This document shows positions 3,945 through 32,106 of a DNA stretch of 56,865 bases, one piece after another. The translations under genes and the position numbers were made by a program. The notes below the pieces were generated by a model. It saw nothing but the letters and a program-made list of their open reading frames with translations, ran no database searches and was not told the origin of the DNA. Source of the DNA: a virus (taxonomy: Duplodnaviria; Caudoviricetes); IMG/VR virus record IMGVR_UViG_3300032304_002452, positions 1-56,865 of that record. One strand, written 5' to 3'. How positions within the stretch are numbered: position 1 is the stretch's first letter; each line of letters begins with the position of its first letter.

Positions 3945-4694
3945 TCAATTTAGTAAAATATTTAATCTATCTTCTCGATTTGGTAAAATATCTTCTTCTT
4001 TGAGTATTGAAATTCCGTCAAAAATTATGACTTCTGATGTAATACTGTTTTCTATTTTAGAAACTTTGTAAGAAATAGTGTTATCTTGTTGAATTGAAAA
4101 ATCTAGAATCATATAATTTCCCGACCTATCTTCTTTAGTAGAAACTATTTCATTAACTTGAAATTTAGTTTTACAGATTTCTTTACCATCTTCATCATAA
4201 TCAAAGTAATTAGAGATTATTTCAACAGCGCTTTCAACTGAATTAACAAAATGAATAATGTCAAACAAATTACAACTTAATTTACAATTGTTTTGTATAT
4301 AATCAACATTGTGAATTTTTATATCTGACTTCTCGATTGTAAAATCTGAAAGATTTTTTTTACAAATCAAAGATTCAGTTAGAGCATACGTTGATTTTGT
4401 CTTGTAATTAAAGATGGTTCCGGATTTTAAAATGGTTTGTAATAAATCATAAAACCTCTTGGCGCATTTTTTAGAAACGGAAAAGTTGAAAAGGTAACCT
4501 ATCTCTGGAACATTATAAATAGGAGTAGGCGCTGTCCTGGGAAATCCCTGATATCCAGAATAACTATTCTCAGATTTCCAAAATGTAATTACATCAGTAG
4601 TAGACCATGTATCATTACTTAATGATAATGAAAGATTGAATTTTTTCAACCTTTCATTCCATTTATCTAAATATTTCTTATCAAATGTTCTCAT
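3945..4694 (-). CDS. Hypothetical protein, last gene of the NAD salvage operon
   Basis: 249 aa; translationally coupled to NAMPT; ends REDRLNILLN. Confidence 0.65.
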   Translation of the reverse strand: MRTFDKKYLDKWNERLKKFNLSLSLSNDTWSTTDVITFWKSENSYSGYQGFPRTAPTPIYNVPEIGYLFNFSVSKKCAKRFYDLLQTILKSGTIFNYKTKSTYALTESLICKKNLSDFTIEKSDIKIHNVDYIQNNCKLSCNLFDIIHFVNSVESAVEIISNYFDYDEDGKEICKTKFQVNEIVSTKEDRSGNYMILDFSIQQDNTISYKVSKIENSITSEVIIFDGISILKEEDILPNREDRLNILLN

Positions 4695-6151
4695 TAAACC
4701 ATTTCGAGTTCTTCAACATCAAAATTGATTTCAGCTCTTTGACGAATTTCTTGGAAATTATAGTCAACTAAAAGATGTCCATTTTCAAATACTTTCACCA
4801 TCACATCACCTTCATCATCCTTAGCCTTTTGAATTGTTTCAAAACCATTATCAGTTTGAACCAATTTCAAATGTCCTTTTTTAGAAGTTTTGAATGATTG
4901 AACGATGTTTCCATATTTATCCACTTCAAGTGGATGTTTTTGAACATCACGTTCTTCACCATTTATGGTGATTGAACAACATTTGAAGGCGAATTTTTGA
5001 GTATCTCGGTCAACTTTTTGAAGAAGAGCGCCACCCATACCAAACACAATATTTTCAGCTGAGAATCCTTCTTCTACCATCATATCTAAGATTTCAATGA
5101 TAGATTCATAATTAACACCATCACCTTGTATTACACGAATATGGTCGTCAATTACTTTGAAACCTTTTGAGTTAGTACGTCCTCCGAATTTATCCCAAAG
5201 TATATTGAATACTTTTTTCAAGGTTTGAACAGGATCTCCACTATCAGGACGAATTACAAGACGACCATTTAAGTTAAGAACTTTTTCACGAAGTTGACCA
5301 CCCCACAATTCTTCACAAGCCCTTAGAATATTATAAGAGTCAGATACACAAGCTCTTATTCCTGTTGGGTAAGCATCTAACATATTTTCATATGCTTTTA
5401 CTTCATTTTCTTCTCCCCAAGAAGTGATAGTTGAGTGTTCAGAAGCTGGAATAGAAAAAGCCAACATTTCATCTGTGTTGTAAATCTCTTGAGCTAGAAG
5501 AATAGCTGTTGCTGTATCAGTACCACGGAAGTTTACCAAGTGAGCTAAACCGCCAATGCCTGAACTTTCAACAGATGATACGCCACGGAATCCAAAATCA
5601 TGTAACATACAGTTCACAATTCCGGTGATTTGTTCTTTATTATAGTCAGTGGTTTTCTTCAAGTATTTGATAAATACTTTTTTAATTTCACGAGAAAGAG
5701 TTCCCACGGTAATAGGATACCAAACTTGCAGTAAAATCGATTCAAGATAGTTAGTCAACCAACGAGTAGGTTCACCACCATTGTTGTGAATATAAACGAG
5801 TACATTTCCCGTTGGTACAACCGTACCTTCTGGTACAGCTTTGATAGTTACAGGAAGATAACCATCATATTTTTCAAGGATATATCTCCAACCAGATTCG
5901 TTGAAGTGTCCGGGTCCTAAGTGAGCATCCCAGAATTTTTTAGCTTTTTGAATTTTTTCTTCGGTTACAACTTGACCAGTTAGGTAAGTTTTCAAAATGT
6001 AGTTAAGACCGATTACGAGTGTTTCTTTAAACATACCACCACGAGATTCGAGGTAAGATGTTACTGTGTCTGTTCCTTGTGGATATTGTGGCCAGTGAGT
6101 TACTTTGTAACTATCAGACAACATTAGGATGTTATTAAAAATTGTATTCAT
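4694..6151 (-). CDS. nadV: Nicotinamide phosphoribosyltransferase (NAMPT)
   Basis: DSYKVTH, LHDFGFRG, PASEHS, VSDSY, RPDSGDP, IQGDG, FGMGGALLQ..RDT motifs. Confidence 0.95.
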   Translation of the reverse strand: MNTIFNNILMLSDSYKVTHWPQYPQGTDTVTSYLESRGGMFKETLVIGLNYILKTYLTGQVVTEEKIQKAKKFWDAHLGPGHFNESGWRYILEKYDGYLPVTIKAVPEGTVVPTGNVLVYIHNNGGEPTRWLTNYLESILLQVWYPITVGTLSREIKKVFIKYLKKTTDYNKEQITGIVNCMLHDFGFRGVSSVESSGIGGLAHLVNFRGTDTATAILLAQEIYNTDEMLAFSIPASEHSTITSWGEENEVKAYENMLDAYPTGIRACVSDSYNILRACEELWGGQLREKVLNLNGRLVIRPDSGDPVQTLKKVFNILWDKFGGRTNSKGFKVIDDHIRVIQGDGVNYESIIEILDMMVEEGFSAENIVFGMGGALLQKVDRDTQKFAFKCCSITINGEERDVQKHPLEVDKYGNIVQSFKTSKKGHLKLVQTDNGFETIQKAKDDEGDVMVKVFENGHLLVDYNFQEIRQRAEINFDVEELEMV

Positions 6152-6161
6152 AAATGTTGAT

Positions 6162-7073
6162 TTATTTTTGTGATGTAAATATACTAAATAATTTTTGGTG
6201 TTCCACCATAAACATTTCTGATTTTAACTCAGAAATATCAAACCATTTCAACTCTTGAATATCATCAGAAGGTTGAATTGGTCCCCAAAGATGTTTACAA
6301 GTGAAAAGTGTGGTCATTATTTTATCATCTTCTCCACGAAATCTCCAATCTTGTATTTGACAAGATGTTACATATTTGTAATCTCCTGATTCTGAATTAG
6401 AACCAGTTTCTTTCATATAAACTCTACGAGCGGCTGATTGAACTGATTCATCTTCTGGTTTAACAAATCCTCCGATAAATCTCCATTTAGATTCATCATA
6501 TTTCTTAGCGAGAAGAACTTTTGTTTCATCTGCATTGAGAGGTGCTATATCAACCGTTGGTATAACACGAGGATAAAGATTATAAGTATGATAGATAACA
6601 CCTGAACGAAAATCTTTTGAGTTTTTAACTTCTTCTGAGATTAATTTTCTAATGTCGGTTCCAGCCCAAGTTCCAAGTGGTTCTAATTCTTTAGTTTTAA
6701 ATTTACCGCCACCATTTAAGTAGTGTGGAATAAATGAATCTCGGCTACCATACATAAGAACTTCACCATGAGGATAAACTTCACGAATTCGTTTATCTAA
6801 TTCTTGAGCCCAACGGTTATTATCAGATTGGTCTTGAATGGCTAAGATGATAGAATCTGGATAATGGGTTTGAACCATCTTTTTACGGGTATCAAAATCG
6901 AGAGGATTTTTCTTAGTTCCAACAAACCGTGGAACTCCCAGGAAGATAATTGTTTTTTTGTGATTTCCGGTTACTTGTTTAATAACGTAGTGGTGACCTT
7001 CGTGTAATTCGTGAACTTGGAATCTCGCGATTGCTACACCGATTGAGTATTTAGAAGGATCTATATTATCCAT
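6162..7073 (-). CDS. nadM: Bifunctional NMN adenylyltransferase / Nudix domain (NadM-Nudix, NatV-like)
   Basis: ARFQ..LHEGH (HxGH), NPL, GTDIRK; C-terminal Nudix fold with GGFV..E...ETG. Confidence 0.85.
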   Translation of the reverse strand: MDNIDPSKYSIGVAIARFQVHELHEGHHYVIKQVTGNHKKTIIFLGVPRFVGTKKNPLDFDTRKKMVQTHYPDSIILAIQDQSDNNRWAQELDKRIREVYPHGEVLMYGSRDSFIPHYLNGGGKFKTKELEPLGTWAGTDIRKLISEEVKNSKDFRSGVIYHTYNLYPRVIPTVDIAPLNADETKVLLAKKYDESKWRFIGGFVKPEDESVQSAARRVYMKETGSNSESGDYKYVTSCQIQDWRFRGEDDKIMTTLFTCKHLWGPIQPSDDIQELKWFDISELKSEMFMVEHQKLFSIFTSQK

Positions 7074-7093: not shown

Positions 7094-7101
7094 CAAATAT
7101 A
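7094..7101 (-). promoter_or_regulatory. Bacteroidetes-type -7 promoter box TATATTTG
   Basis: TAnnTTTG ~20 nt upstream of the nadM start. Confidence 0.6.
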
Positions 7102-7106
7102 CAACA

Positions 7107-7418
7107 TTAAATCATTCTCTCCAAAGTTTCTCTCAAATATTTTTCAATTTCTCTGGCTTTTCTACGAGTTGTTTTGACATCTAATTGTAAACGATATTCT
7201 TTAACTGAATCTTCATCTTCTAACTCAGTTAGAGTGACTTCAATTGTTTCTTTTATTTTAATAGAATCTTTAATTTGATTGAATGGTAGTTCTAATTGAC
7301 CAAAACAGGTATTCATAATTAGAGCGTCGTTCTCATTCAACAATTCAATTTCTTCTCCTTTGTTTAAGATTACAGTATCAATTACTTTAATGTCTTTTAT
7401 AATTTGATATTTTGGCAT
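7107..7418 (-). CDS. Hypothetical protein
   Basis: 103 aa ORF filling the gap, divergent from 7435. Confidence 0.6.
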   Translation of the reverse strand: MPKYQIIKDIKVIDTVILNKGEEIELLNENDALIMNTCFGQLELPFNQIKDSIKIKETIEVTLTELEDEDSVKEYRLQLDVKTTRRKAREIEKYLRETLERMI

Positions 7419-14197: not shown

Positions 14198-14923
14198 ATG
14201 ATTAGGAATACAGAAGAGGCTAACAAATACTATCAACTTGTGAATCAATATATTGATGAATATACTGATACTCACAAAATCCGTCCTGTTAAATTGGGAA
14301 AATACCTTAAAAACTCTGATAAATTGAAAAACTTCTTAGAAAGAAAGGGTTTGAAAGATGTTCAAAATATCAACCGTGTTATCTCTGATGTGGTTGAAGA
14401 TAGAATTGCTATGGAAAAAGATTTAGTTAGGACTTTTGAAAGTTTTAAGTTATTTGAATCGGACGAATTTAAGATTCTAAATCTTAGACAATGTCTATAT
14501 AAAGGTATTGAAAAGTCAAATATTCACCATGAAAAGATTTTGGCTGATTACTTTGATGTTTCATTAAGTCACGTTGATATAATCAATTCTGATAAACATG
14601 TATTTAAAATTGAATCTTTGGGTAGTGATGTTGAATGTGTGATTTATACTTCAAATGAATTAGAAATAATTCGTGAGAATATGAAAGAATATTGTTTTGA
14701 TCAAGTCTTCAATAAGAAGGTAAAGTTGGAAGGTATTGGTGTTGAATTGAATGTTAATATCAAAGATTTTATTGATAATGAAAAATTTGGAAACCACATT
14801 AGTGAGGTTTTAACTGTGGAAAAGGTAAAAGAAATTATAAGAATTTTAATTTCTTGTGAAAAACCTAAATATAATCCTGATGAAAAAGATAATTTCATTG
14901 GTTTAAATCCATCACATTATTAA
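14198..14923 (+). CDS. Hypothetical protein with internal VRTFESFKLFES motif
   Basis: 241 aa; AAATATATA upstream. Confidence 0.65.
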   Translation: MIRNTEEANKYYQLVNQYIDEYTDTHKIRPVKLGKYLKNSDKLKNFLERKGLKDVQNINRVISDVVEDRIAMEKDLVRTFESFKLFESDEFKILNLRQCLYKGIEKSNIHHEKILADYFDVSLSHVDIINSDKHVFKIESLGSDVECVIYTSNELEIIRENMKEYCFDQVFNKKVKLEGIGVELNVNIKDFIDNEKFGNHISEVLTVEKVKEIIRILISCEKPKYNPDEKDNFIGLNPSHY

Positions 14924-15189
14924 TCTAAAATTTTATCAATCTTTATATCTCTTTGATTTTGAATTGTGAGATATTTGTAACCTCCAATTTCCCAATCATC
15001 TGCAAGTATTTGTGTTAGGTTAATTTCATAATTTACAATTTCTGTTCCGGTTTCAAAAAAGAAATTAATTTTAGTTTTATCTTGATTTAAGTAAATATGT
15101 GCTGATTTATAACCATCAACGATATACCAAGAATTTCTTCTTATTTTCTTTCCATCTTTTAGTGCAGGTAATACTTCTTCGAATGTCAT
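14920..15189 (-). CDS. DUF2829/Tad2-like protein (putative immune-signal sponge)
   Basis: MTFEEVLPALKDGKKIRRNSW...QILADDWEI matches DUF2829 termini; extra C-terminal RDIKIDKILD. Confidence 0.6.
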   Translation of the reverse strand: MTFEEVLPALKDGKKIRRNSWYIVDGYKSAHIYLNQDKTKINFFFETGTEIVNYEINLTQILADDWEIGGYKYLTIQNQRDIKIDKILD

Positions 15190-15449
15190 ATTAATTCTTT
15201 TATTTTCAGGTCTCTTATCTCTTTCTTAAAAAAATCTCCTGTATTTTGAACTCCTGGGTCAGGAATTCTTTTTTGTAATAAACGGACCAAGATATGATCA
15301 GGAACTCCCGTGATATCTATGGTATGTTTACATCGTTTCGATTTTTTTATATGTAGTTTGGTTTCAGTAAGTTGGTAACTTCTGATTTCTTTAGTTTCTA
15401 CTTTTGAATCTAAAGACTTTTTTATTTTTGATTTGGTAAAAATATTCAT
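15186..15449 (-). CDS. Hypothetical basic protein
   Basis: 87 aa; ATGA overlap with the next gene; ends RDLKIKELI. Confidence 0.55.
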   Translation of the reverse strand: MNIFTKSKIKKSLDSKVETKEIRSYQLTETKLHIKKSKRCKHTIDITGVPDHILVRLLQKRIPDPGVQNTGDFFKKEIRDLKIKELI

Positions 15450-15479: not shown

Positions 15480-16946
15480 TTATATAATTTCACTTATTAG
15501 ATAACTTTTAAGTCTATCTAGTGTTTCTCTTTTCCCAAGTATGAACATAGAGTTCTTAACGTCTATACCTTGTGAATTGTAAACTACTGTTTTTCTCAAC
15601 AGTCCTAATACTTTTCCTGACTTCAATCCGTTTGTATTTATGTAATCAGTTATTGTGTTAGATATGTTGTCAAATGTCCAGTCGTTAATTGTTCCGATTG
15701 ATTTGATAACGCTATCAATTATTTTGATGTCATTATCGTCAATAGTTACATTGTCTTTTCTTGTGAACAGATTATCTACGATAGGTTTGAAATCGTGTTT
15801 AAAATTACATCTTTTCTTAGTTTCTGTTATTAAGGCAGTTTTCTGTCCGTCTGTCAAGTTTGACAAATCTACTCCTTGAGTTAAATCATCATCAGATGTC
15901 ATATGTTGAATCCATTGAGAGTTAATCCAAGTTGCTTTAGGCATATCGAATCTTGCTCCAGACTTGTGAACTCTATCTAAAGAGAATGAATTAATCATAT
16001 CGTCCATAGTAAGTAATTCTTTATCATCACCTGGATTCCATCCAACAAATGCCAGTGCGTTCATAAACGCATTAGTGTCATAACCTAAATCTTTCCAACC
16101 TTTTTGGTAAACACCGTTATCATCAGTATAACCGATTGGCGCAATTGGAATACCATATTTAGCTGCAGTTCTTTTAGATAATTTTCCTTTACCATCTGGA
16201 TTCATAATCAAAGGCAAATGTGCAAAAGTAGGTACATTCCATCCAAATGATTTGTAAAGTAATATATGGAATGGAGTTGAGGCAACCCATTCTTGTCCAC
16301 GTAGAACGTGAGTCACTCCCATATCGTGATCGTCACATACATTACAAAGGTGATAAGAACCTACACCGTTTGATTTGAGTAGAACTTTATCATCCACTTG
16401 ATTAGTATTGATAGAAATATCACCAAGTATCGCATCAGTGAAATTTACATCTATGTTAGAAGGAACTTTAAAACGAATTACATAAGGTGATCCTGATATC
16501 AAAAGTGAATCTACATCACTTTTAGACATGCTAAGTGAATTTTTCAAACTCATACGAGTTGAATCATCATATTTGAAATTTGGAATTGTTTTGTGTGCCA
16601 AGTCCAAATCATCTTTTGTATCGAAAGCGTAGTAAGCAAAGTCGTTATCTAATAGGAATTTAATCTTGTCGGAATAATCTCTTTCAGATTGAATAAAAGA
16701 ACCCACAGAAGTATCTGGGTTCCAATAAGAAGCATCTGGAACTATACCGAACCAATCAAGTGTATCCTTGAAATATTGTAGAAATGATGGTGTGTAACGA
16801 TCACGATCGGTATCTTCTAAACGAACAATAAATTTACCTCCATGTCGTTTAGCTAGGAAGTAATTATAAAGTAATGTTCTTAAATTGCCGATGTGACAAA
16901 ATGAAGACGTGGGTGAAGGCGCCAACCTTGTTATGATATTATTCAT
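15480..16946 (-). CDS. gltX: Glutamyl-tRNA synthetase (Glu-depleted)
   Basis: RLAPSPT, HIGN (HIGH), RLEDTD, QSER, YHLCNVCDDHDMGVTHVLRG, KLSKR (KMSKS); full-length with anticodon-binding region. Confidence 0.92.
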   Translation of the reverse strand: MNNIITRLAPSPTSSFCHIGNLRTLLYNYFLAKRHGGKFIVRLEDTDRDRYTPSFLQYFKDTLDWFGIVPDASYWNPDTSVGSFIQSERDYSDKIKFLLDNDFAYYAFDTKDDLDLAHKTIPNFKYDDSTRMSLKNSLSMSKSDVDSLLISGSPYVIRFKVPSNIDVNFTDAILGDISINTNQVDDKVLLKSNGVGSYHLCNVCDDHDMGVTHVLRGQEWVASTPFHILLYKSFGWNVPTFAHLPLIMNPDGKGKLSKRTAAKYGIPIAPIGYTDDNGVYQKGWKDLGYDTNAFMNALAFVGWNPGDDKELLTMDDMINSFSLDRVHKSGARFDMPKATWINSQWIQHMTSDDDLTQGVDLSNLTDGQKTALITETKKRCNFKHDFKPIVDNLFTRKDNVTIDDNDIKIIDSVIKSIGTINDWTFDNISNTITDYINTNGLKSGKVLGLLRKTVVYNSQGIDVKNSMFILGKRETLDRLKSYLISEII

Positions 16947-16977: not shown

Positions 16978-16985
16978 CAAAAGTA
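16978..16985 (-). promoter_or_regulatory. Bacteroidetes-type -7 promoter box TACTTTTG
   Basis: TAnnTTTG ~30 nt upstream of gltX. Confidence 0.5.
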
Positions 16986-16997
16986 AGGAATATTTTT

Positions 16998-17987
16998 ATG
17001 AAAACAAAATTTATATACACACTTTCCGATCCAAATAGTGGATTAGTTAGATATATTGGTAAAGCTAAAGATGTTAAAAAAAGATTATCAAATCATCTAT
17101 CCAATAACCATCTTTCAACTTCAACTAAAAAAAATAATTGGATTATATCTCTTTTAAGAAATCAACAATTGCCTATTATAGAAGTAGTTGATGAGGTCAC
17201 ATCTGAAGAAATTGATTTCTATGAAATATTTTATATTTCATTATTTAAATCATGGGGATTTGATTTATTAAACGGAACCAATGGTGGTGATGGATTTGAT
17301 TGGAGTGGTAAAAAACATAATGATTACTCAAAATTAAAAAAAAAAATAAATAGTCCTCATAGAAAATCCGTTGCTCAATTTGATTTAGATGGAAATTTAA
17401 TTAAAGAACATCATTCACTTAGAGAAGCTGCTCAGTCAGTAAATGGTGATAAATCACATATATCGAAAGTATGTAAAGGTGTGTCTAAATATATAACGTC
17501 ATATGGATTTAAATGGAGTTTTATTGATAGAATAAATAGTCATGATATTGAAGAGGTCAAAAATAGAATTGTAAAATATGAGAAGCCTAGAATTGATAGT
17601 AGAATGAAAAAAATCCAAGTGTTTGATTTGAAGGGTAATCTATTAGATACTTGTAGAAGTTTAAATGGAACATCAAAGAAAACCGGGTGTCATATTCATT
17701 TGATTAAAAAATGTTGTGAAGAGAAACGTTATTATCAAACAAAGAATTTAACGTTTAGATATTTTGGAGACCCATTTGATTATTTTCCTTATAAATATTA
17801 TAGAGTGAATAAAAATTATAGAGTCGGTAAATTCGATAGAGATGGTAATTTATTACAAGAGTTTGATACTTTAAGTTCGATAAGTAAAGAAACTGGTATT
17901 GGTAAACAATATATTTCCAAAAATTGTAAAATTAATCAGAAAGATGGTGTTAGTGAATTGAAAGGATTTGTTTTTAGATTTATTTAA
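16998..17987 (+). CDS. GIY-YIG homing endonuclease with NUMOD1-like repeats
   Basis: FIYTL..VRYIGK..RL..H N-terminus; NGTNGGDG; three (V/I)xQFDLxGNL repeats. Confidence 0.8.
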   Translation: MKTKFIYTLSDPNSGLVRYIGKAKDVKKRLSNHLSNNHLSTSTKKNNWIISLLRNQQLPIIEVVDEVTSEEIDFYEIFYISLFKSWGFDLLNGTNGGDGFDWSGKKHNDYSKLKKKINSPHRKSVAQFDLDGNLIKEHHSLREAAQSVNGDKSHISKVCKGVSKYITSYGFKWSFIDRINSHDIEEVKNRIVKYEKPRIDSRMKKIQVFDLKGNLLDTCRSLNGTSKKTGCHIHLIKKCCEEKRYYQTKNLTFRYFGDPFDYFPYKYYRVNKNYRVGKFDRDGNLLQEFDTLSSISKETGIGKQYISKNCKINQKDGVSELKGFVFRFI

Positions 17988-25091: not shown

Positions 25092-27599
25092 ATGTCTAAA
25101 AACAAAGGAACCTTAGTATCATCCACAATAAGACCACTATCCACCAATTCATCTATGGCAACAGCGGTTGCGAATGAGATATTAGGTGGTTATCATACAG
25201 TAAACACATATACAGATAGAGATGCAATAACATATGATAGAAGAACATTTGGTATGTTGGTATATGTTTTAAATACTGATGAATTTTATCAATTAAAGAC
25301 AACTAATTCGGCTGACTTATCTGATAATTTAAACTGGACACTTGTTACTTTTAGTGGTGGTGGATCTGGTACAGAATGGTTAGATTCTGTTATTTCAAGA
25401 AGTGGAACACCACCGATTTCACCTTCAGTAGGCGATAGATATTTAGTTGTTGGTGGTAGTGGTATTTGGACTACTTTTAATGATTTGATAGTTGAGTGGA
25501 ATGGATTATCATATGATTTAACTGTTCCAACAGAAGGTACAACAGTTAGAGCTGATAATGAGACGACTTGTATTTATGTTTACTTAAATGCCGATTATCC
25601 GAGTGGAACTTGGACTAAACAAGATTTTGTTGTAGATCCATTTGAACCTCTTTGGAATATTGAACCATCAAAGACAATTAATGTTGGAACTAATTCTGAG
25701 TATTTGATTTATGGTGATTTGAATGTTGATGGTGTCGTCAATACATGGGGTAAGGTTGTTGTTTTGAATGGTGCTATTACGGGTAGTGGTTCGGTAAATA
25801 TTTTAGCAGGTGGTTCTGTTCAACAAGTAGATATGTTGACTGAAATATATGGTGGAACTGGAATCTCAATTGAGGCAACTTCGTTAAGTACGAGAAGTGT
25901 GTCAGTTGATATTGTTGCTGGTTCTGGGATTACCTTATCAAATTCAGGTAATTCTTTAGTTGTTTCAGCAATTGGTTCTGCAACGGCGAGTGGTGCTACA
26001 AAATATGTTATTCAGTCAACTGAAACTATTACTGTTCCTGATTATGAAGAGTATTGGATATACGGTGATTTAACTGTTTTTGGTACTCTTGATATTGGAA
26101 CATATGGTAAAGTAGTAGTGGCAAATGGTAATTTTATAGCTGCCTCTGGATCTTTGGTGAATAACATGGGTAATGTTGAAGTCTATGATTTATTGACTGT
26201 TACTGATGATAACTTGAAAGTTGATATTACAGAGATTAAATTTGGTAAAGCTGGTAGAATTCTTTTTGAGAGTGAGTTGAAGTATATTCCTTTAACAGGA
26301 ACTTATGCTCGTGTTTTAACAGAATCAGATAATTTAGTTTATTCAACTTCTAGTGCTTATTTAACTGCAACATACTCATCTGGTTTGGATAACTATTTAG
26401 GTATTTCTACTAATGATCCTTTAAAAAAGGTTCATATAAGAAATTCAGGTCTTTTAATTGATGGTTCTGAGGCTGAACAAGATGAGACAGTAGGTGATCA
26501 GAATTGGGCAAGAATTGTGGTCGATACTAGCACAAGTAATGTACAAGATATTTTAGACTTTAGAAATGATCAAGGTAGAGTTTTATTTGTCTCAGGTGCA
26601 ATTGAAGGTGGGAATAGATATCCGAGTGTTTCGATAGGTACATCTTCAACTGATAAATTGTTTCAGATTACAGATTATTATAGCACTCATACATTTTTAG
26701 AATTAACAAGAACCGGTTCATTTTCACAAATAAACACTAATGGATTCAAGTTGATTAATAATGATTTTGATGGTGTTTTTGCGACAGTTTCCGGTGCTGG
26801 CGCTTATTATGATGATGGAGTTGCTGTTAAATTCGCTGGAGTGGCAGATAACACAAATGGCGGTGGGACTTTTGGTTCTGTATTAGCATCTATTGATAGA
26901 AGTAATGGTTATCTTAATCAAATTGCTGTTCAATCAGATTATGCTTATATTTCAGTAGAAGATACTGTAAATGGTATCGTTTCTGATGTATTTGCATATA
27001 CTCATAGTTTAAGTTTGGAATATGTTTCAGCACCTTCCGCTACAATTGAGGAAATTACACTAAGTGATTATGGTATAAAGAATACTATAACTGGAACTTT
27101 TTCTATACAGGATATAATTGGCAATGATTTGGTATCAGTTTCCGATACTGGAACAGTTTCAATTTATGGTCTCACTAACAGTTCAGATACGAATGTTGTC
27201 ACTTGGAACTCAACAACAAAGGAATTAGGAGTCAGAAATTATTCGAGAAATTTCGTTTTGACTAGAGAAATATCATTTGAAACGGGGGAACAAGGTATAT
27301 ATATGATTGTAGTCCCTGATAAATGTAAATTGATATATCCTGTTGTTAGAGTGACAAAAGATATTGCTGGTACTGATAATGCTACTATTACTCTTCAAAA
27401 TGATGCTGGCACTACTATGACAGGTACAGCAGGAGTAATAACTCTATTAGCATCTACGACATTTGGTTCACAAGTTAGTGGATCCATTACGGGTAATAAT
27501 ACATTTGGAGCTTCAGGAGACCAAATTAGAATAGTAACAGCTAAAACCACTGCTGGTGGAAAATGTTCTATTGATTTACTTTTCGAGCTTGAGGATTAA
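25092..27599 (+). CDS. Virion structural protein (tail fibre/baseplate-like; DUF2793-like segment)
   Basis: G/S/T-rich; SVISRSGTPP..GDRYLV..W..IVEWNG; duplicated EY.IYGDL.V.G module; LGISTNDP repeat. Confidence 0.65.
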   Translation: MSKNKGTLVSSTIRPLSTNSSMATAVANEILGGYHTVNTYTDRDAITYDRRTFGMLVYVLNTDEFYQLKTTNSADLSDNLNWTLVTFSGGGSGTEWLDSVISRSGTPPISPSVGDRYLVVGGSGIWTTFNDLIVEWNGLSYDLTVPTEGTTVRADNETTCIYVYLNADYPSGTWTKQDFVVDPFEPLWNIEPSKTINVGTNSEYLIYGDLNVDGVVNTWGKVVVLNGAITGSGSVNILAGGSVQQVDMLTEIYGGTGISIEATSLSTRSVSVDIVAGSGITLSNSGNSLVVSAIGSATASGATKYVIQSTETITVPDYEEYWIYGDLTVFGTLDIGTYGKVVVANGNFIAASGSLVNNMGNVEVYDLLTVTDDNLKVDITEIKFGKAGRILFESELKYIPLTGTYARVLTESDNLVYSTSSAYLTATYSSGLDNYLGISTNDPLKKVHIRNSGLLIDGSEAEQDETVGDQNWARIVVDTSTSNVQDILDFRNDQGRVLFVSGAIEGGNRYPSVSIGTSSTDKLFQITDYYSTHTFLELTRTGSFSQINTNGFKLINNDFDGVFATVSGAGAYYDDGVAVKFAGVADNTNGGGTFGSVLASIDRSNGYLNQIAVQSDYAYISVEDTVNGIVSDVFAYTHSLSLEYVSAPSATIEEITLSDYGIKNTITGTFSIQDIIGNDLVSVSDTGTVSIYGLTNSSDTNVVTWNSTTKELGVRNYSRNFVLTREISFETGEQGIYMIVVPDKCKLIYPVVRVTKDIAGTDNATITLQNDAGTTMTGTAGVITLLASTTFGSQVSGSITGNNTFGASGDQIRIVTAKTTAGGKCSIDLLFELED

Positions 27600-28434: not shown

Positions 28435-31400
28435 ATGGATAAACAATTATTAGCAGCATTAGACAACCTTTCAATCGCTTTAGAGATGCTAACCGAATCT
28501 CTTAGTAAAAATAAAGAGGCAAAAAGTCCTACTGCCACTGCTATGCAATCTGGTAATTTTGGAGAACAATTGAAAGAAATTAATAAAGGAATTCAAGAGT
28601 TAAAAGATGATAATAAAAAGATTTTAGATGATACTCAAACCATTATAAAACTCCAGAAAGAGAAGAAAGATAGTTCGATGAATGTTTTCGAAGGAGCAGG
28701 TAAGGAAAATAATAAAAAAATGTTAAAAGATGGAATATCTGTGGTAGTTCTTATTGCTGGTGCTGTTTTGGCGATTGGATTAGCTTTCAAATTAATTGGA
28801 ACAGTTGATTGGAAGTCAGTTTTGGCTATATCAGTTGCGCTTCCAATGATTGCTTTTGCCTTTGAGAAAATGGCAAAAATAAAAGATTTAACTCCAGGTA
28901 AGGTTCTAATGATAGGATTATCAGTTGTTGGTTTATCTATTGCTATTATGTTATCATCAAAAGTTTTAGGTCTTGTTACACCCATAAGTTTATTTCAAGC
29001 ACTGACTGTTGTTTTTATAGCAACGGCATTTGGAGCAGCAGCTTTTGGACTTGGTAGTCTTTTGAAGGCTTTCAAGGATATAAAGGTAGCAGATGCCTTG
29101 AAAGCTTCTTTAGTTTTACCTTTAGTCTTATTAGCTGTTAGTGTTGCAATTGCAGCTTCTTCAGTTGTTTTGCAGGCAGTTCAACCAATAGGTTTATTTC
29201 AAGCCTTGACTGTTGTACTTATTGCGGCCGCATTTGGTGTCGTTTCATATGGTTTAGGTAAACTTATTTCAGCATTTAAGGATATCTCACCTGGTGATGC
29301 AGTAGTTGCAGCATTTTTAATGCCGGTAGTATTGATTGCTTTAAGTTATGCCATAGTAGAGACTTCTAAAATGTTTCAGTCCATAGTGCCAATTGGATTA
29401 TTTCAAGCATTGACCGCTATTCTAATCTCTGCAACTTTTGTTATCTTGGCTTACGCTGTGAAGCCACTTATGAAAGGTGTAGAGGGTGTAACTTTAAAAC
29501 AGATTGGTATGGGAACACTTGTTCTATTAGCGTTGACTGCTGCTGTGGTTGGTGCTTCATGGTTAATGATGGGTCTAAAACCAGTTTCTTTTTCCACTAT
29601 TGCGAAGTTTCTATTTTTATCAATTAGTCTTTCGGTATCAGTTATTGCTTTGGCTTTAGCGGTTAAAATTGTTAATAAACTTGGAACTCCGAAAGATTAT
29701 ATTCAGGGTGGTGCTTCAATTGTTATAATGGCAACCACTATAATGTTGAGTTCTTTGATGATTTCTAAGGGTAATTATAGTAATTATCCAGGATTATTTT
29801 GGAGTTTATTCTCAGGATTGGCAATCGCGGCATTTACCTTAGTAAACTGGTTAGTTATAAAGTTAGGAAGGGTAAAAGACTACATTCAAGGTGGTATATC
29901 AATTGTGGTTATAGCGACGACAATTATGATTACTTCACATTTGATATCAGCCGGTAATTATACTAACTATCCACCATTAATGTGGTCAATTGGAACAGTT
30001 ATAAGTATAGGATTATTTGGAATTGCCGCGGTTCTTTTGGGTACATTCTTGATGAATCCAACATTTTATATGGGACTGGCTGTAATTGTTATAATAGCTG
30101 CAACAATTGTTGCGGTTTCATACATTCTTGGGACTGGTAGTTATGAAAAATATCCAACATTTGGTTGGTCAATGGGTGTTGGTTTGGCACTTGGATTCTT
30201 CGGATTGACAGCTATATTATTAGGTACTCAAGTTTTCAATCCATTCTTTTATGCCGGTCTTGGCATGATTGCTGTTGTTGCACTTGCAATTGTTGGTGTT
30301 TCTTACATTTTTGAACAAGGATCTTATAAAGTTTATCCTCCATCCAGTTGGGTTGTTCCTACTATGTTAATACTTGGAAGTTTTTCGGCAATGGCCGTTT
30401 TACTTGGTATAATAGCTCCAATAGTTCTTTTGGGAGTTGCCACCGCTTTGATTATTAGTGGTTCAATAGTTGCTATTGATAAAATATTTCAAATGGGTTC
30501 CTACAAGGTTTATCCACCTGACGAATGGGTTAATTCAACTATGATGTTGATAGGTAAGTTTGCCATAATGTCATCTGTATTAGCATTAGCTTTACCTTTA
30601 ATTACCCTGGGTACAATTTCAATATTATTGATTGTTGGTGTGATTTATTTAATTGATAAAGTGTTTACTAGTGGTAAATATCGGAAATATCCAAATGAGG
30701 TGTGGCAAAGAGGTGTGACAATGACTATCAATAAATTTGCCAGTTTAATTAAAGATATAAGAAAAAATGTAGGATTTGGAGATTTAATTTTTGGAATTTT
30801 GAAGATTATTGGACTGGCAGAGTCAATAGTTAAAATTGATAAAATATTTAGTGAGGGTAAATATGAAAAGTATCCTAAGAAAGAGTGGGTTGATGGTTCA
30901 ATGTATGCTCTTGAGAAAATGAGAGACTTGGTAGGTAAACAAAGTATGTTTGCTGCAATTGGTGAAGCTATTGGCAACTTTTTTGGAGTTGGAGGTAAAT
31001 CAACTGTGATTAAATTAGCCGAGGGCATTCTTCAATTGGATCAAGTATTCTCAAAAGGTAAATTTCAAAGTTATCCTTCTAAATCTTGGATAGATGGAAT
31101 ACAATATGCTTTGAATAGATTCCAGAATATGTTAGGTGGTAAAACTTTTATGGAATCTCTAAAGTCATTGGTTGGAATGGATTCAAATTCAGCTCTTATA
31201 TCTCTTGCTAAATCAGTTGGTCATGTTGCGGAAGCTTTTGCTAAAGGAGATTATACTAAGTATCCAAAACCTGAGTGGATAGATGGTACAATATATGCTC
31301 TTCAGAAATTTAAGTCTATATTGGGTATGTTGAATTTTGATGATTTGGGTTCTGGGGGCATTATGGGATCAATAACTAGTTTATTTGGTGGTAAGAGTCC

Positions 31401-32106
31401 GTTAGAACAAGCCGTTTCTAATATAACGCTATTAGCAATGGCATTTGAGAAGTTAGGTTCAGCTATGAGTTCTTTCTCAAATTCTATTCAAGACTTAGAT
31501 GTTGAGAAACTTGGATTGGTTAAGAGTATGTCTAATAACGTCATCTTGCTTTCACTTATGGATCCTGATATGTTAGAAAGTGTTCTGACTAAGATAGAAG
31601 AAAAGGGTGGAATATTTGCTGAATTAATTAAAGATTTTGAAGGTAAAAAAGAAACTTCTCCAACCGCAACACCAATGAAAGTGACAACAACCGGAACAAA
31701 ACAAAAAACAGAAGGTCAAATTTTAGCTGAAAAAATAGATGGAATGACAGCTTTACTAGCAGATATATCAAGTGTTGTTGGTTCTAAAGGAGCTTTGAAA
31801 AATTATTTACTTTCAGTTAAAGAAAATCAATTGAATTCGTCAGGAAATGCTCCAAGTACAAGTCGTTCAGATAAAAGACTTAAAAATATATTGAAGAAAG
31901 TTGGTCAATCTATTAGTGGTATAAATATTTATCACTTTACATACACATTCAATCCAAGGATTATTTACCAAGGTGTTATTGCTCAAGAGTTATTAAATAC
32001 TCCGTTTGAACATGCTCTAGTTATAGATAAAAATGGATTCTATTCGGTTGATTATTCTAAATTAGATGTTCAGTTTAAAAAAATATCAACATCTGATACT
32101 TTTTGA
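28435..32106 (+). CDS. Tape-measure-like multi-pass membrane protein with C-terminal S74 intramolecular chaperone domain
   Basis: 1223 aa; coiled-coil N-terminus, many hydrophobic helices, GxYxxYP repeats; SDKRLKNI..IY.FTY..GVIAQEL..VDYSKL. Confidence 0.6.
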   Translation: MDKQLLAALDNLSIALEMLTESLSKNKEAKSPTATAMQSGNFGEQLKEINKGIQELKDDNKKILDDTQTIIKLQKEKKDSSMNVFEGAGKENNKKMLKDGISVVVLIAGAVLAIGLAFKLIGTVDWKSVLAISVALPMIAFAFEKMAKIKDLTPGKVLMIGLSVVGLSIAIMLSSKVLGLVTPISLFQALTVVFIATAFGAAAFGLGSLLKAFKDIKVADALKASLVLPLVLLAVSVAIAASSVVLQAVQPIGLFQALTVVLIAAAFGVVSYGLGKLISAFKDISPGDAVVAAFLMPVVLIALSYAIVETSKMFQSIVPIGLFQALTAILISATFVILAYAVKPLMKGVEGVTLKQIGMGTLVLLALTAAVVGASWLMMGLKPVSFSTIAKFLFLSISLSVSVIALALAVKIVNKLGTPKDYIQGGASIVIMATTIMLSSLMISKGNYSNYPGLFWSLFSGLAIAAFTLVNWLVIKLGRVKDYIQGGISIVVIATTIMITSHLISAGNYTNYPPLMWSIGTVISIGLFGIAAVLLGTFLMNPTFYMGLAVIVIIAATIVAVSYILGTGSYEKYPTFGWSMGVGLALGFFGLTAILLGTQVFNPFFYAGLGMIAVVALAIVGVSYIFEQGSYKVYPPSSWVVPTMLILGSFSAMAVLLGIIAPIVLLGVATALIISGSIVAIDKIFQMGSYKVYPPDEWVNSTMMLIGKFAIMSSVLALALPLITLGTISILLIVGVIYLIDKVFTSGKYRKYPNEVWQRGVTMTINKFASLIKDIRKNVGFGDLIFGILKIIGLAESIVKIDKIFSEGKYEKYPKKEWVDGSMYALEKMRDLVGKQSMFAAIGEAIGNFFGVGGKSTVIKLAEGILQLDQVFSKGKFQSYPSKSWIDGIQYALNRFQNMLGGKTFMESLKSLVGMDSNSALISLAKSVGHVAEAFAKGDYTKYPKPEWIDGTIYALQKFKSILGMLNFDDLGSGGIMGSITSLFGGKSPLEQAVSNITLLAMAFEKLGSAMSSFSNSIQDLDVEKLGLVKSMSNNVILLSLMDPDMLESVLTKIEEKGGIFAELIKDFEGKKETSPTATPMKVTTTGTKQKTEGQILAEKIDGMTALLADISSVVGSKGALKNYLLSVKENQLNSSGNAPSTSRSDKRLKNILKKVGQSISGINIYHFTYTFNPRIIYQGVIAQELLNTPFEHALVIDKNGFYSVDYSKLDVQFKKISTSDTF

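What the first reader, a model, noticed from the sequence alone, without database searches (positions are those of the whole stretch)
15480..16946. Phage glutamyl-tRNA synthetase almost purged of glutamate: possible translation-rescue/anti-defence enzyme
Seen: 7 Glu against about 55 Asp in 488 aa (hand count; ~1.4% Glu), while neighbouring enzymes (UvsX, NAMPT, PPK2) are Glu-rich. Three of the remaining Glu sit in core motifs (RLEDTD, QSER, RGQEW), and the usual RGEEW has lost one Glu. Acidic surface positions read DD/DDD. Known: E. coli HipA kinase inactivates GltX by phosphorylating the Ser of KLSKR, depleting Glu-tRNA(Glu). Inference: selection removed Glu codons so the phage can still translate a replacement GluRS after a host toxin or defence system (or starvation) stops Glu-tRNA charging. 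A host-type promoter box and co-orientation with a Tad2-like gene fit an early counter-defence role. The KLSKR Ser is retained, so any kinase resistance would have to come from elsewhere.
Basis: partly seen in the sequence, partly recalled or inferred. Interest (0 to 1): 0.92.

Follow-up and report, generated by a model that had tools for sequence, protein, structure and literature searches.

The report
Phage glutamate-charging enzyme nearly without glutamate
A bacteriophage carries its own enzyme for loading glutamate onto tRNA, and the gene has been stripped of almost every glutamate codon except a few conserved ones, probably so the enzyme can still be made when glutamate-loaded tRNA runs short during infection.

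Summary
The ORF at 15480-16946 (-) is an intact bacterial-type GluRS (TIGR00464, 363.6 bits against a cut-off of 289.95). It has 7 Glu and 55 Asp in 488 aa, the lowest E/(D+E) in the window.

The depletion is seen only in the reading frame. Total acidic content is kept (12.7% against a family median of 14.2%). Four of the seven Glu (E44, E88, E219, E310) are invariant in 25 of 25 Glu-poor relatives and conserved in ordinary GluRS.

The trait belongs to a phage clade. 119 of the 120 closest homologues are Glu-poor, including the published 634-kb phage LR745206. GluRS in general has a median of 7.55% Glu.

Phage GlnRS in related huge phages is purged of Gln (120 of 120 homologues have 4 Gln or fewer, 114 have exactly one) yet stays Glu-rich. 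Trimmed HisRS-like genes have no His, and a trimmed LeuRS writes 19 of 19 Leu as TTG. So the avoided residue follows each enzyme's own substrate.

The best reading is a "cold-start" synthetase that can be translated when its own product is scarce.

This scan noted the same rule earlier on other DNA (e1-5689624 and others). I did not find it in the papers I searched.

The parts
15480..16946 (-). Complete bacterial-type glutamyl-tRNA synthetase gene, 488 aa, with 7 Glu (all GAA) and 55 Asp
   Evidence: ORF and composition. (PF00749 at residues 4-338, PF19269 at 377-481). (TIGR00464, 363.6 bits against a cut-off of 289.95). (PDB 6brl/6b1z, E=1e-111). (67 of 73 outgroup-conserved columns kept).
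16884..16895 (-). HIGH-type signature (HIGN, residues 18-21)
   Evidence: aligned to the H.G of PDB GluRS.
16815..16817 (-). Retained Glu codon E44 (in RLEDTD)
   Evidence: E in 56 of 57 outgroup rows and 25 of 25 Glu-poor rows; kept even in relatives with only 4 Glu.
16683..16685 (-). Retained Glu codon E88 (in QSER)
   Evidence: E in 41 of 57 outgroup rows and 25 of 25 Glu-poor rows.
16290..16292 (-). Retained Glu codon E219 (in RGQEW); the preceding family-typical Glu is Gln here
   Evidence: E in 57 of 57 outgroup rows and 25 of 25 Glu-poor rows. At column 218 the outgroup has E in 82% of rows, and the clade has Q, N or D.
16017..16019 (-). Retained Glu codon E310 (in DKELL)
   Evidence: E in 51 of 57 outgroup rows and 25 of 25 Glu-poor rows.
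16170..16184 (-). KMSKS-type signature KLSKR (residues 255-259), serine retained
   Evidence: aligned to GKLSKR of PDB GluRS.
16978..17008 (-). Candidate Bacteroidota-type promoter, TTTG-N19-TACTTTTG, ending 32 nt before the ATG
   Evidence: Nearly the same sequence stands before the 86%-identical gene in L001. TAnnTTTG boxes occur within 130 nt upstream in 8 of 12 related GluRS loci, read by eye. This is a consensus match only: 4 sites in the window against 2.41 expected.
15186..15449 (-). 87-aa ORF directly downstream and co-oriented; conserved downstream of GluRS in L001; no family match; Glu-normal (5 of 87)
14920..15189 (-). Tad2-like (DUF2829) gene, last in the co-oriented run; absent from L001; Glu-normal (6 of 89)
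   Evidence: PF11195, E=3.8e-10.
16998..17987 (+). GIY-YIG/NUMOD1 homing-endonuclease-like gene, divergent from GluRS; absent at this place in L001. It is context, not part of the enzyme.
   Evidence: PF01541, PF07453.

Best explanation
The gene encodes a working phage copy of bacterial-type GluRS. It has been rewritten under selection so that translating it needs almost no Glu-tRNA(Glu).

Shown: Glu is kept only at positions the family cannot change, and elsewhere it is replaced mainly by Asp. Total acidic content and the catalytic signatures are preserved. The trait is shared by a phage-only clade, and the avoided residue follows the substrate in other phage synthetases.

Inferred: the gene is transcribed by host RNA polymerase from a Bacteroidota-type promoter. 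Its mRNA has 7 rather than about 36 hungry codons, so it can still be completed when charged tRNA-Glu is scarce. If each hungry codon is passed with probability 0.9, yield is about 24-fold higher than for a Glu-normal version. The enzyme then recharges tRNA-Glu, which lets the Glu-rich rest of the phage proteome (7.4% Glu) be made. It acts as a self-starting spare part.

What causes the shortage is not known. It could be a host toxin or defence against GluRS or tRNA-Glu, a starved or dormant host, or the phage's own demand.
For: Enzyme integrity:
- TIGR00464 scores above its cut-off, and both Pfam domains are present.
- 67 of 73 columns that are at least 90% conserved in 57 ordinary GluRS are kept, and the 6 changes are conservative.

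Selective purge:
- 7 E against 55 D, seen only in frame.
- D+E is 12.7% against a median of 14.2%.
- Columns where the outgroup has E read D in the clade. E44, E88, E219 and E310 are invariant in 25 of 25 Glu-poor rows.
- Relatives with only 4 Glu keep E44, E219 and E310.

Clade-wide and phage-borne:
- 119 of 120 nearest homologues have 3.5% E or less.
- 9 of 14 IMG/VR loci are Glu-poor, on contigs of up to 483 kb.
- LR745206 has E6 and D58.
- The GluRS has the lowest E/(D+E) of 200 ORFs in a 381-kb phage.
- 150 family representatives have a median of 7.55% E.
- No close relative was found in 185,579 species genomes by pattern scan.
- A tree built with D and E masked gives one clade at SH-aLRT 100 with at least 2 changes of state.

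The avoided residue tracks the substrate:
- An unbiased scan of the 381-kb phage flagged a 544-aa ORF with 1 Gln (14.6 expected). It is GlnRS and has 50 Glu.
- 120 of 120 of its homologues have 4 Q or fewer, and 114 have exactly 1.
- HisRS-like 210-211-aa proteins in 3 phages have 0 His.
- A trimmed LeuRS writes 19 of 19 Leu as TTG, while TTG makes up 20% of Leu codons nearby.

Relatives seem to monitor Glu decoding: a leader ORF with the run YYYEE, followed by a hairpin and T-run, precedes a tRNA-Glu/Tyr block.

The principle is known for biosynthetic enzymes (PMC4209129, passages read).
Against: - There is no direct evidence of a Glu-tRNA shortage, and no expression data (no RNA run was listed).
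- Seven Glu codons remain, so a complete block could not be bypassed.
- Not all phage GluRS are purged. L002-L004 (E28) sit inside the clade. L013/L014 (E31), LR756504 (E40) and LR756501 (E44) are normal.
- One phage (G004) has a purged GlnRS but a normal GluRS.
- A 282-aa catalytic-only GluRS/GluQRS-like paralogue in G001 has 20 Glu.
- The two genes co-oriented downstream of the window's GluRS are Glu-normal.
- No Glu-rich leader or sensor precedes this gene.
- Residue-poor ORFs also occur among non-synthetases. Of 10 flagged or neighbouring ORFs annotated in the 381-kb phage, 9 were not synthetases.
- In cells the glutamate biosynthetic pathway shows a high, not low, cognate bias. Simple glutamate starvation is therefore an unlikely cause.
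Confidence: 0.6

Rival explanations
1. Counter-defence version. The shortage is caused by a host toxin or defence that inactivates host GluRS (a HipA-type kinase) or destroys tRNA-Glu. The Glu-poor GluRS is an early anti-defence gene that replaces the disabled host enzyme. This is a special case of the best explanation that names the trigger.
For: - HipA is reported to phosphorylate and inactivate GluRS (abstracts of PMC8262856 and PMC6581861 in the listing).
- A host-type promoter box precedes the gene.
- The window also holds a Tad2-like gene and a NAMPT plus cytidylyltransferase/NUDIX pair, so the phage does carry counter-defence-like cargo.
- Phage tRNAs are reported to evade tRNA-targeting immunity (reference list of PMC13359090).
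Against: - The serine of KLSKR is retained, so there is no sign of kinase resistance.
- Tad2 is absent from the closest relative.
- There was no PADLOC match.
- The same habit in GlnRS, HisRS-like and LeuRS-like genes would need many amino-acid-specific defences, or else a general cause.
- No host or defence system is identified.
Confidence: 0.2
2. Insulation or fidelity rather than rescue. The purge makes the amount and accuracy of the synthetase independent of its own product. It would avoid a feedback loop, or avoid misreading of hungry Glu codons in the enzyme that sets Glu fidelity. No recurrent shortage would have to be overcome.
For: The depletion is cognate-specific in GluRS and GlnRS. 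GlnRS stays Glu-rich, so each enzyme is uncoupled only from its own substrate.
Against: Cellular GluRS faces the same loop and is not purged (median 7.55% E). The depth of the purge, down to 4 Glu, and the single-codon LeuRS suggest strong pressure from real scarcity.
Confidence: 0.1
3. Protein-level cause. Glu side chains are a liability in this protein, for example as targets of a Glu-specific protease or modification, or Asp is preferred for folding or tRNA handling. On this view the effect has nothing to do with decoding.
For: Replacement is mostly by Asp, with acidic content kept. This is also what a protein-level constraint would give.
Against: It does not explain why GlnRS loses Gln but keeps 50 Glu, why HisRS-like proteins have no His, or why a LeuRS uses one Leu codon only. 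A codon choice cannot be a protein-level effect. The neighbouring phage proteins are Glu-normal.
Confidence: 0.05
4. The enzyme feeds a use of Glu-tRNA outside translation, such as a tRNA-dependent modification or tetrapyrrole synthesis. That use drains the pool, and the purge is a side effect of the self-made drain.
For: A tRNA-dependent phage DNA modification appears in the listing (PMC13219725, title and abstract start only). The window has many unassigned ORFs.
Against: No partner enzyme was identified next to the gene. The same purge in GlnRS, HisRS-like and LeuRS-like genes argues for a translation-wide logic.
Confidence: 0.05

Closest known systems
Bacterial (Bacteroidota-type) GluRS, solved as PDB 6brl/6b1z; NCBIfam TIGR00464 gltX_bact
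   Same: Full-length match over residues 3-481 (E=1e-111). It has the class I catalytic domain plus the Anticodon_2 domain, HIGH and KLSKR signatures, and 67 of 73 conserved columns.
   Different: Ordinary members have a median of about 7.6% Glu and E/(D+E) of about 0.55. This one has 1.4% and 0.11.
GluRS of huge phages of Bacteroidetes (Al-Shayeb et al. 2020, PMC7162821; records LR745206 and LR756502)
   Same: 62% identical by tblastn. The LR745206 copy is also Glu-poor (E6, D58). The paper shows a phage GluRS subtree placed next to Bacteroidetes (legend of Extended Data Fig. 7a).
   Different: The passages shown for 'synthetase' say nothing about composition. Other huge phages from that paper (LR756504, LR756501) carry Glu-normal GluRS.
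Cognate bias of amino-acid biosynthetic enzymes (Fasani and Savageau 2014, PMC4209129; Alves and Savageau 2005, recalled)
   Same: The logic is the same: a protein needed to restore supply of X is written with little X, so it can be made when X is short (passages).
   Different: That work concerns cellular biosynthetic enzymes and modest biases, and glutamate is its exception, with a high bias. Here the protein is a viral tRNA-charging enzyme, the limiting species would be charged tRNA, and the purge is near-total.
Phage tRNA genes as spare parts against loss of host tRNAs (Yang et al. 2021; Azam et al. 2024; both seen only as references in PMC13359090)
   Same: The idea is the same: the phage brings its own translation parts to keep decoding going during infection. 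In huge-phage relatives the Glu-poor GluRS sits inside tRNA arrays that include tRNA-Glu.
   Different: Those are RNAs. Here the adaptation is in the coding sequence of a protein part, and this window has no tRNA gene.
Earlier notes of this scan on other DNA (e1-5689624, e1-5617988, e1-5689627)
   Same: They state the same rule: phage synthetases avoid their own amino acid or all but one of its codons.
   Different: They concern other genomes and mostly trimmed synthetases behind leader sensors. This case is a full-length GluRS behind a plain promoter in a different phage clade.

Membership tests
Bacterial-type glutamyl-tRNA synthetase (TIGR00464 / PF00749 + PF19269) | Whole-protein score above the curated equivalog cut-off | tested here: met
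   363.6 bits against a cut-off of 289.95, covering residues 4-482.
Bacterial-type glutamyl-tRNA synthetase (TIGR00464 / PF00749 + PF19269) | Class I catalytic domain with HIGH and KMSKS signatures, plus the helical anticodon-binding domain | tested here: met
   (PF00749 E=5.9e-69; PF19269 E=4.8e-14). (HIGN at 18-21, KLSKR at 255-259).
Bacterial-type glutamyl-tRNA synthetase (TIGR00464 / PF00749 + PF19269) | Family-invariant residues retained | tested here: met
   67 of 73 columns that are at least 90% conserved in 57 outgroup rows are identical. The 6 changes are G>S, I>L, I>F, P>G, T>S and A>C.
Bacterial-type glutamyl-tRNA synthetase (TIGR00464 / PF00749 + PF19269) | Charges tRNA-Glu with glutamate; discriminating or non-discriminating towards tRNA-Gln | tested here: inconclusive
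   Activity cannot be tested with these tools. I tried to align the anticodon-binding domain to the Thermus enzyme to read the recalled discriminating Arg position. The match covered only chain residues 296-332.
GluQRS (YadB, TIGR03838) | Catalytic domain only, no anticodon-binding domain; score above cut-off | tested here: not met
   157.3 bits against a cut-off of 276.7. An anticodon-binding domain is present.
Low-cognate-bias proteins (Savageau's cognate bias) | Cognate residue far below both the proteome's and the family's expectation, while other residues are not | tested here: met
   E is 1.4% against 7.4% in the window's ORFs and 7.6% in the family. D+E is preserved.
Low-cognate-bias proteins (Savageau's cognate bias) | The depleted residue tracks the enzyme's own substrate in sister enzymes | tested here: met
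   GlnRS: Q is 1 of 544 with E 50, and 120 of 120 homologues have Q of 4 or less. HisRS-like: 0 His in 3 of 3. Trimmed LeuRS: 19 of 19 Leu as TTG. Exceptions: the GluRS of G004 and the 282-aa paralogue of G001.
Low-cognate-bias proteins (Savageau's cognate bias) | Needed and made when the cognate supply is short | not testable with these tools
   No expression or tRNA-charging data. No RNA run was listed.
   KLSKR is intact at residues 255-259.
   A Tad2-like neighbour is present in the window but absent from the 86%-identical locus L001.

The most novel reading that the evidence does not exclude
Phage tRNA synthetases may be cold-start modules. Each would be written without its own amino acid, or with a single codon for it, so that it can be made exactly when that one charged tRNA has failed. 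If so, amino-acid-specific collapse of tRNA charging is a routine event in infections of Bacteroidota, whether imposed by host defences, by dormancy or by the phage itself. The depth of the purge in each synthetase would then show which charged tRNAs fail. That would give the long-unexplained phage synthetase genes a concrete, testable job. It would also supply natural templates for enzymes that can be expressed without their own substrate.
Probability: 0.4. Interest if true: 0.9.

Novelty: new variant of a known kind. Interest (0 to 1): 0.8.

Why it matters
Why large phages carry tRNA synthetases is still open; a 2026 review calls the role of their translation genes unknown (PMC13359090, passages). 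A synthetase stripped of its own amino acid down to the catalytic minimum is a clear signature of selection. It says when the enzyme must be made: while its own product is missing.

This turns a vague idea, that phages boost translation, into a testable one, that phages restart a specific failed charging step. It points to charged-tRNA depletion as a recurrent condition of infection. It also extends the cognate-bias principle from cellular biosynthetic enzymes to viral translation parts, in a far more extreme form.

On the practical side, these natural sequences show which Glu or Gln positions a GluRS or GlnRS can do without.

Tried and rejected
- DNA-level avoidance of GAA/GAG (restriction-site-like or mutational bias): rejected, because the off-frame counts are normal.
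- General acid loss: rejected, because D+E is preserved.
- Glu-rich leader peptide or attenuator before this gene: none. The intergenic gap to the next gene is 51 nt, and the 15-codon upstream ORF in L001 has 3 scattered Glu.
- Promoter enrichment: the composite box is not more frequent than chance (4 sites against 2.41 expected; 26 of 100 shuffles reach 4). I use it only as a conserved local feature.
- Alternative genetic code: not needed. The ORF aligns full-length under table 11.
- tRNA genes: none in the window or its record.
- Discriminating versus non-discriminating type: the Thermus chain aligned only up to residue 332, so this gave no answer.
- Independent Glu-poor or Gln-poor GluRS (P0163, P0132): no relative in IMG/VR, so their origin is unknown.
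- Other synthetase families in five huge-phage records: PF00579, PF00750 and PF01411 found nothing. PF00133 and PF09334 found only the trimmed LeuRS of G004. PF00152 and PF00587 found only the HisRS-like proteins.
- PHROGs and PADLOC gave nothing useful for the neighbours.
- RNA evidence: no RNA holder was listed.
- Literature: eight full-text searches and term look-ups in PMC4209129, PMC9437257, PMC7162821, PMC11304981 and PMC13359090 showed no statement that phage synthetases lack their cognate residue. Subscription papers and all supplements, including Supplementary Tables 6 and 7 of PMC7162821, were not visible.
- Structure prediction, complex prediction and the protein atlas were not used, because the sequence evidence was already decisive for fold and family.
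Full report
**What is there.** The window is a 56,865-base virus record and is the whole of what is held for this genome. It has about 30% G+C and no tRNA gene. It carries phage genes: a RecA/UvsX-like protein and a T4-type large terminase, and NAMPT, PPK2 and a GIY-YIG/NUMOD1 endonuclease.

The ORF at 15480-16946 on the minus strand encodes 488 aa. It matches the class I Glu/Gln catalytic domain (PF00749, E=5.9e-69) and the Anticodon_2 domain (PF19269). It scores 363.6 bits against NCBIfam gltX_bact, whose cut-off is 289.95, and stays far below the GluQRS cut-offs. Its best solved relatives are the GluRS chains 6brl and 6b1z, aligned over residues 3-481 (E about 1e-111).

Of 73 alignment columns that are at least 90% conserved in 57 ordinary GluRS, 67 are identical here, and the six changes are conservative. 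HIGN (residues 18-21) and KLSKR (255-259) are in place. I take it to be an intact GluRS. Its activity is inferred, not shown.

**The observation.** The hand count was exact: 7 Glu (all GAA) and 55 Asp. E/(D+E) is 0.11, the lowest of 56 ORFs of at least 100 aa. The next real gene stands at 0.28. The named neighbours have 6.9-10.6% Glu.

The chance of 7 or fewer Glu is 1.4e-9 against the window's other ORFs and 5.3e-10 against the family median. For 7 of 62 acidic residues it is 1.2e-12.

In-frame GAA falls to 14.3 per 1000 codons, against 57.9 in 42 other ORFs, and GAG falls to zero. In the two other frames the same trinucleotides occur at background rates. The pressure therefore acts on codons or residues, not on DNA words. 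Total acidic content is kept: 12.7% against a family median of 14.2%.

**It is a clade trait with a floor.**
- Of the 120 best homologues in the 5.8-billion-protein collection, 119 have between 4 and 17 Glu (0.8-3.5%). One, at 61% identity, is normal.
- A large group at 63-65% identity has only 4-6 Glu.
- 150 representatives of the wider family (clustered at 50% identity) have a median of 7.55% Glu and E/(D+E) of 0.545.
- In IMG/VR, 9 of 14 related loci are Glu-poor. They lie on contigs of 43 to 483 kb, several of them inside tRNA arrays that include one to three tRNA-Glu genes. The other 5 are normal.
- The published 634-kb phage LR745206 carries a copy with 6 Glu and 58 Asp. LR756504 and LR756501 carry normal ones.
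- In a 381-kb stretch of one such phage, the GluRS has the lowest E/(D+E) of 200 ORFs.
- A pattern scan of one genome for each of 185,579 prokaryote species found no close relative. The only hit was 34% identical, with 44 Glu. That scan can only see close relatives.

I built a tree from 84 rows, chosen from 142 left after removing near-duplicates among 248 sequences of 440-560 aa. The more distant representatives P0191 to P0269 were left out. D and E were masked so that the trait could not shape the tree. All Glu-poor rows and one normal lineage (L002) fall into one clade with SH-aLRT 100. The clade splits into the window's subclade (7-17 Glu, plus L002 with 28) and a huge-phage subclade (4-11 Glu).

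Forcing the 25 Glu-poor rows into one clade without L002 is rejected (AU p=0.013). The caveat is that I named the group after seeing the tree. At least two changes of state are needed. That means either two purges or one purge and one reversal.

Where ordinary GluRS has Glu, the clade mostly has Asp. E44, E88, E219 and E310 are Glu in 25 of 25 Glu-poor rows, and in 56, 41, 57 and 51 of 57 outgroup rows. Relatives with only four Glu keep E44, E219 and E310. The purge has thus run down to residues the enzyme seemingly cannot change.

**The avoided residue follows the substrate.** I scanned the 381-kb phage for ORFs that nearly lack any one residue. The scan flagged a 544-aa ORF with 1 Gln where 14.6 were expected. 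It has the GlnRS architecture and scores 645 bits on glnS. It contains 50 Glu.

All 120 of its nearest homologues have four Gln or fewer, and 114 have exactly one. Their median Glu count is 48.

I searched five huge-phage records with eight synthetase families and found the following:
- Four purged GluRS and one normal GluRS.
- Two Gln-poor GlnRS.
- Three HisRS-like 210-211-aa proteins with no His at all. Taken singly this is weak (P about 0.06).
- A trimmed LeuRS whose 19 Leu are all TTG, in a region where TTG makes up 20% of Leu codons.
- A 282-aa catalytic-only GluRS/GluQRS-like protein with a normal 20 Glu.

So 10 of 12 synthetase-like genes avoid their own residue or codons, and 2 do not. 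Other ORFs flagged by the scan were not synthetases: a Rad50-like protein, Hsp70, a glycosyltransferase, DUF7487 proteins and others. Residue poverty as such is therefore not unique to synthetases. What is special here is the match between the missing residue and the enzyme's substrate.

**How it most likely works.** A protein-level reason cannot explain a GlnRS that sheds Gln but keeps Glu, nor a LeuRS that uses a single Leu codon. A decoding-level reason can. The fewer hungry codons an mRNA holds, the more often a ribosome finishes it when that charged tRNA is scarce. This is the cognate-bias argument made for amino-acid biosynthetic enzymes (PMC4209129, passages read).

With 7 instead of about 37 Glu codons, and a 0.9 chance of passing each hungry codon, yield rises about 24-fold (an illustration, not a measurement). 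The product then recharges tRNA-Glu and re-opens translation of the other phage proteins, which hold 7.4% Glu.

The gene has its own TTTG-N19-TACTTTTG box ending 32 nt before the ATG. The box is conserved in the 86%-identical locus L001. Boxes of the same TAnnTTTG kind stand before most related GluRS genes. This fits transcription by the RNA polymerase of a Bacteroidota host. The consensus itself is recalled, not taken from a call, and the pattern is not enriched in the window.

In a huge-phage relative, a promoter box, a leader ORF containing the run YYYEE, and a hairpin with a T-run precede a tRNA block of Glu, Glu, Tyr, Glu, Tyr. This agrees with earlier notes of this scan that these phages gauge the decoding of particular codons. 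I did not test the alternative RNA folds.

**What is not shown.** Nothing identifies the cause of a shortage. Cells show no low cognate bias for glutamate biosynthesis, so plain glutamate starvation is unlikely. A failure of charging or of the tRNA is more plausible (inference).

The target serine is kept, Tad2 is not a conserved neighbour, PADLOC is silent, and several synthetase types share the habit. Some phage GluRS are not purged. The huge-phage GluRS subclade is also poor in Gln (1-6 against an outgroup median of 11), for which I have no tested explanation.

**Novelty.** Phage GluRS genes near Bacteroidetes are published (PMC7162821). I saw the cognate-purge rule in none of my eight searches or the five papers I queried, and supplements were closed. 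The scan itself noted the rule before on other DNA. This case adds a full-length GluRS clade with a clear floor at conserved residues, a matching GlnRS family, and a presence in already published genomes.

Noticed in passing
L011:17413-19047 (+) = G002:271877-273511: A huge-phage GlnRS (544 aa) with a single Gln and 50 Glu, directly after two tRNA-Gln genes. 114 of its 120 nearest homologues also have exactly one Gln.
   Followed up: yes
L015:1504-2769 (+) in G004; L048:1444-2079 and L049:1447-2079: A trimmed LeuRS (421 aa) writes all 19 Leu as TTG. HisRS-like catalytic cores of 210-211 aa in three huge phages contain no His.
   Followed up: partly
L030:7657-7737 (+) (G002), upstream of the tRNA-Glu/Tyr block at L011:448-1276: A leader ORF (26 codons) with the run YYYEE follows a TATATTTG box and is followed by a strong hairpin with a T-run. 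It stands before tRNA-Glu, Glu, Tyr, Glu, Tyr and looks like a codon-matched attenuator. The alternative folds were not tested.
   Followed up: partly
Huge-phage GluRS subclade (for example L007, L009, P0065, P0107): These GluRS are poor in Gln as well as Glu (1-6 Gln against an outgroup median of 11), whereas the window's subclade has 7-12 Gln. Possible reasons are a non-discriminating enzyme or a joint Glu/Gln shortage. This is unexplained.
   Followed up: partly
window 4694-7073 (-), box at 7094-7125: NAMPT is followed by a cytidylyltransferase-like plus NUDIX protein, an NAD-salvage pair. It sits behind the same TTTG-N-TAnnTTTG box type as the GluRS. It may be a counter to NAD-depleting defences.
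   Followed up: no
window 16998-17987 (+): A GIY-YIG/NUMOD1 homing-endonuclease-like gene lies divergent from the GluRS start and is absent at this place in the closest relative L001. It looks like a mobile insertion next to the promoter.
   Followed up: partly
window 15186-15449 (-) and 14198-14923 (+): An 87-aa ORF directly after GluRS and a convergent 241-aa ORF are both conserved in L001. Neither has a Pfam, PHROG or PADLOC match.
   Followed up: partly
window 15480-16946 (-): Among Asp codons the GluRS uses GAC more than the rest of the window does (13 of 55, against about 13%; Fisher p=0.04). This may be a translation-efficiency signature.
   Followed up: partly
window 25092-27599, 28435-32106 and 49518-53795 (+): Three very large ORFs with no Pfam match. 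25092-27599 and 49518-53795 are strongly Lys-poor (24 K against 80 expected, and 61 against 136). 28435-32106 is poor in Arg, Glu, Asn and Asp and has no Cys. They are probably virion proteins.
   Followed up: no
L014:18242-18804, L011:16760-16911, L013:10699-10909: Two to four tRNA-Asp genes cluster a few kb from the GluRS genes in huge phages.
   Followed up: no
L044:913-1761 (-) in G001: A 282-aa catalytic-domain-only GluRS/GluQRS-like paralogue with normal Glu content (20 Glu) sits beside a purged full-length GluRS in the same phage. It is either a control or an exception to the rule.
   Followed up: partly
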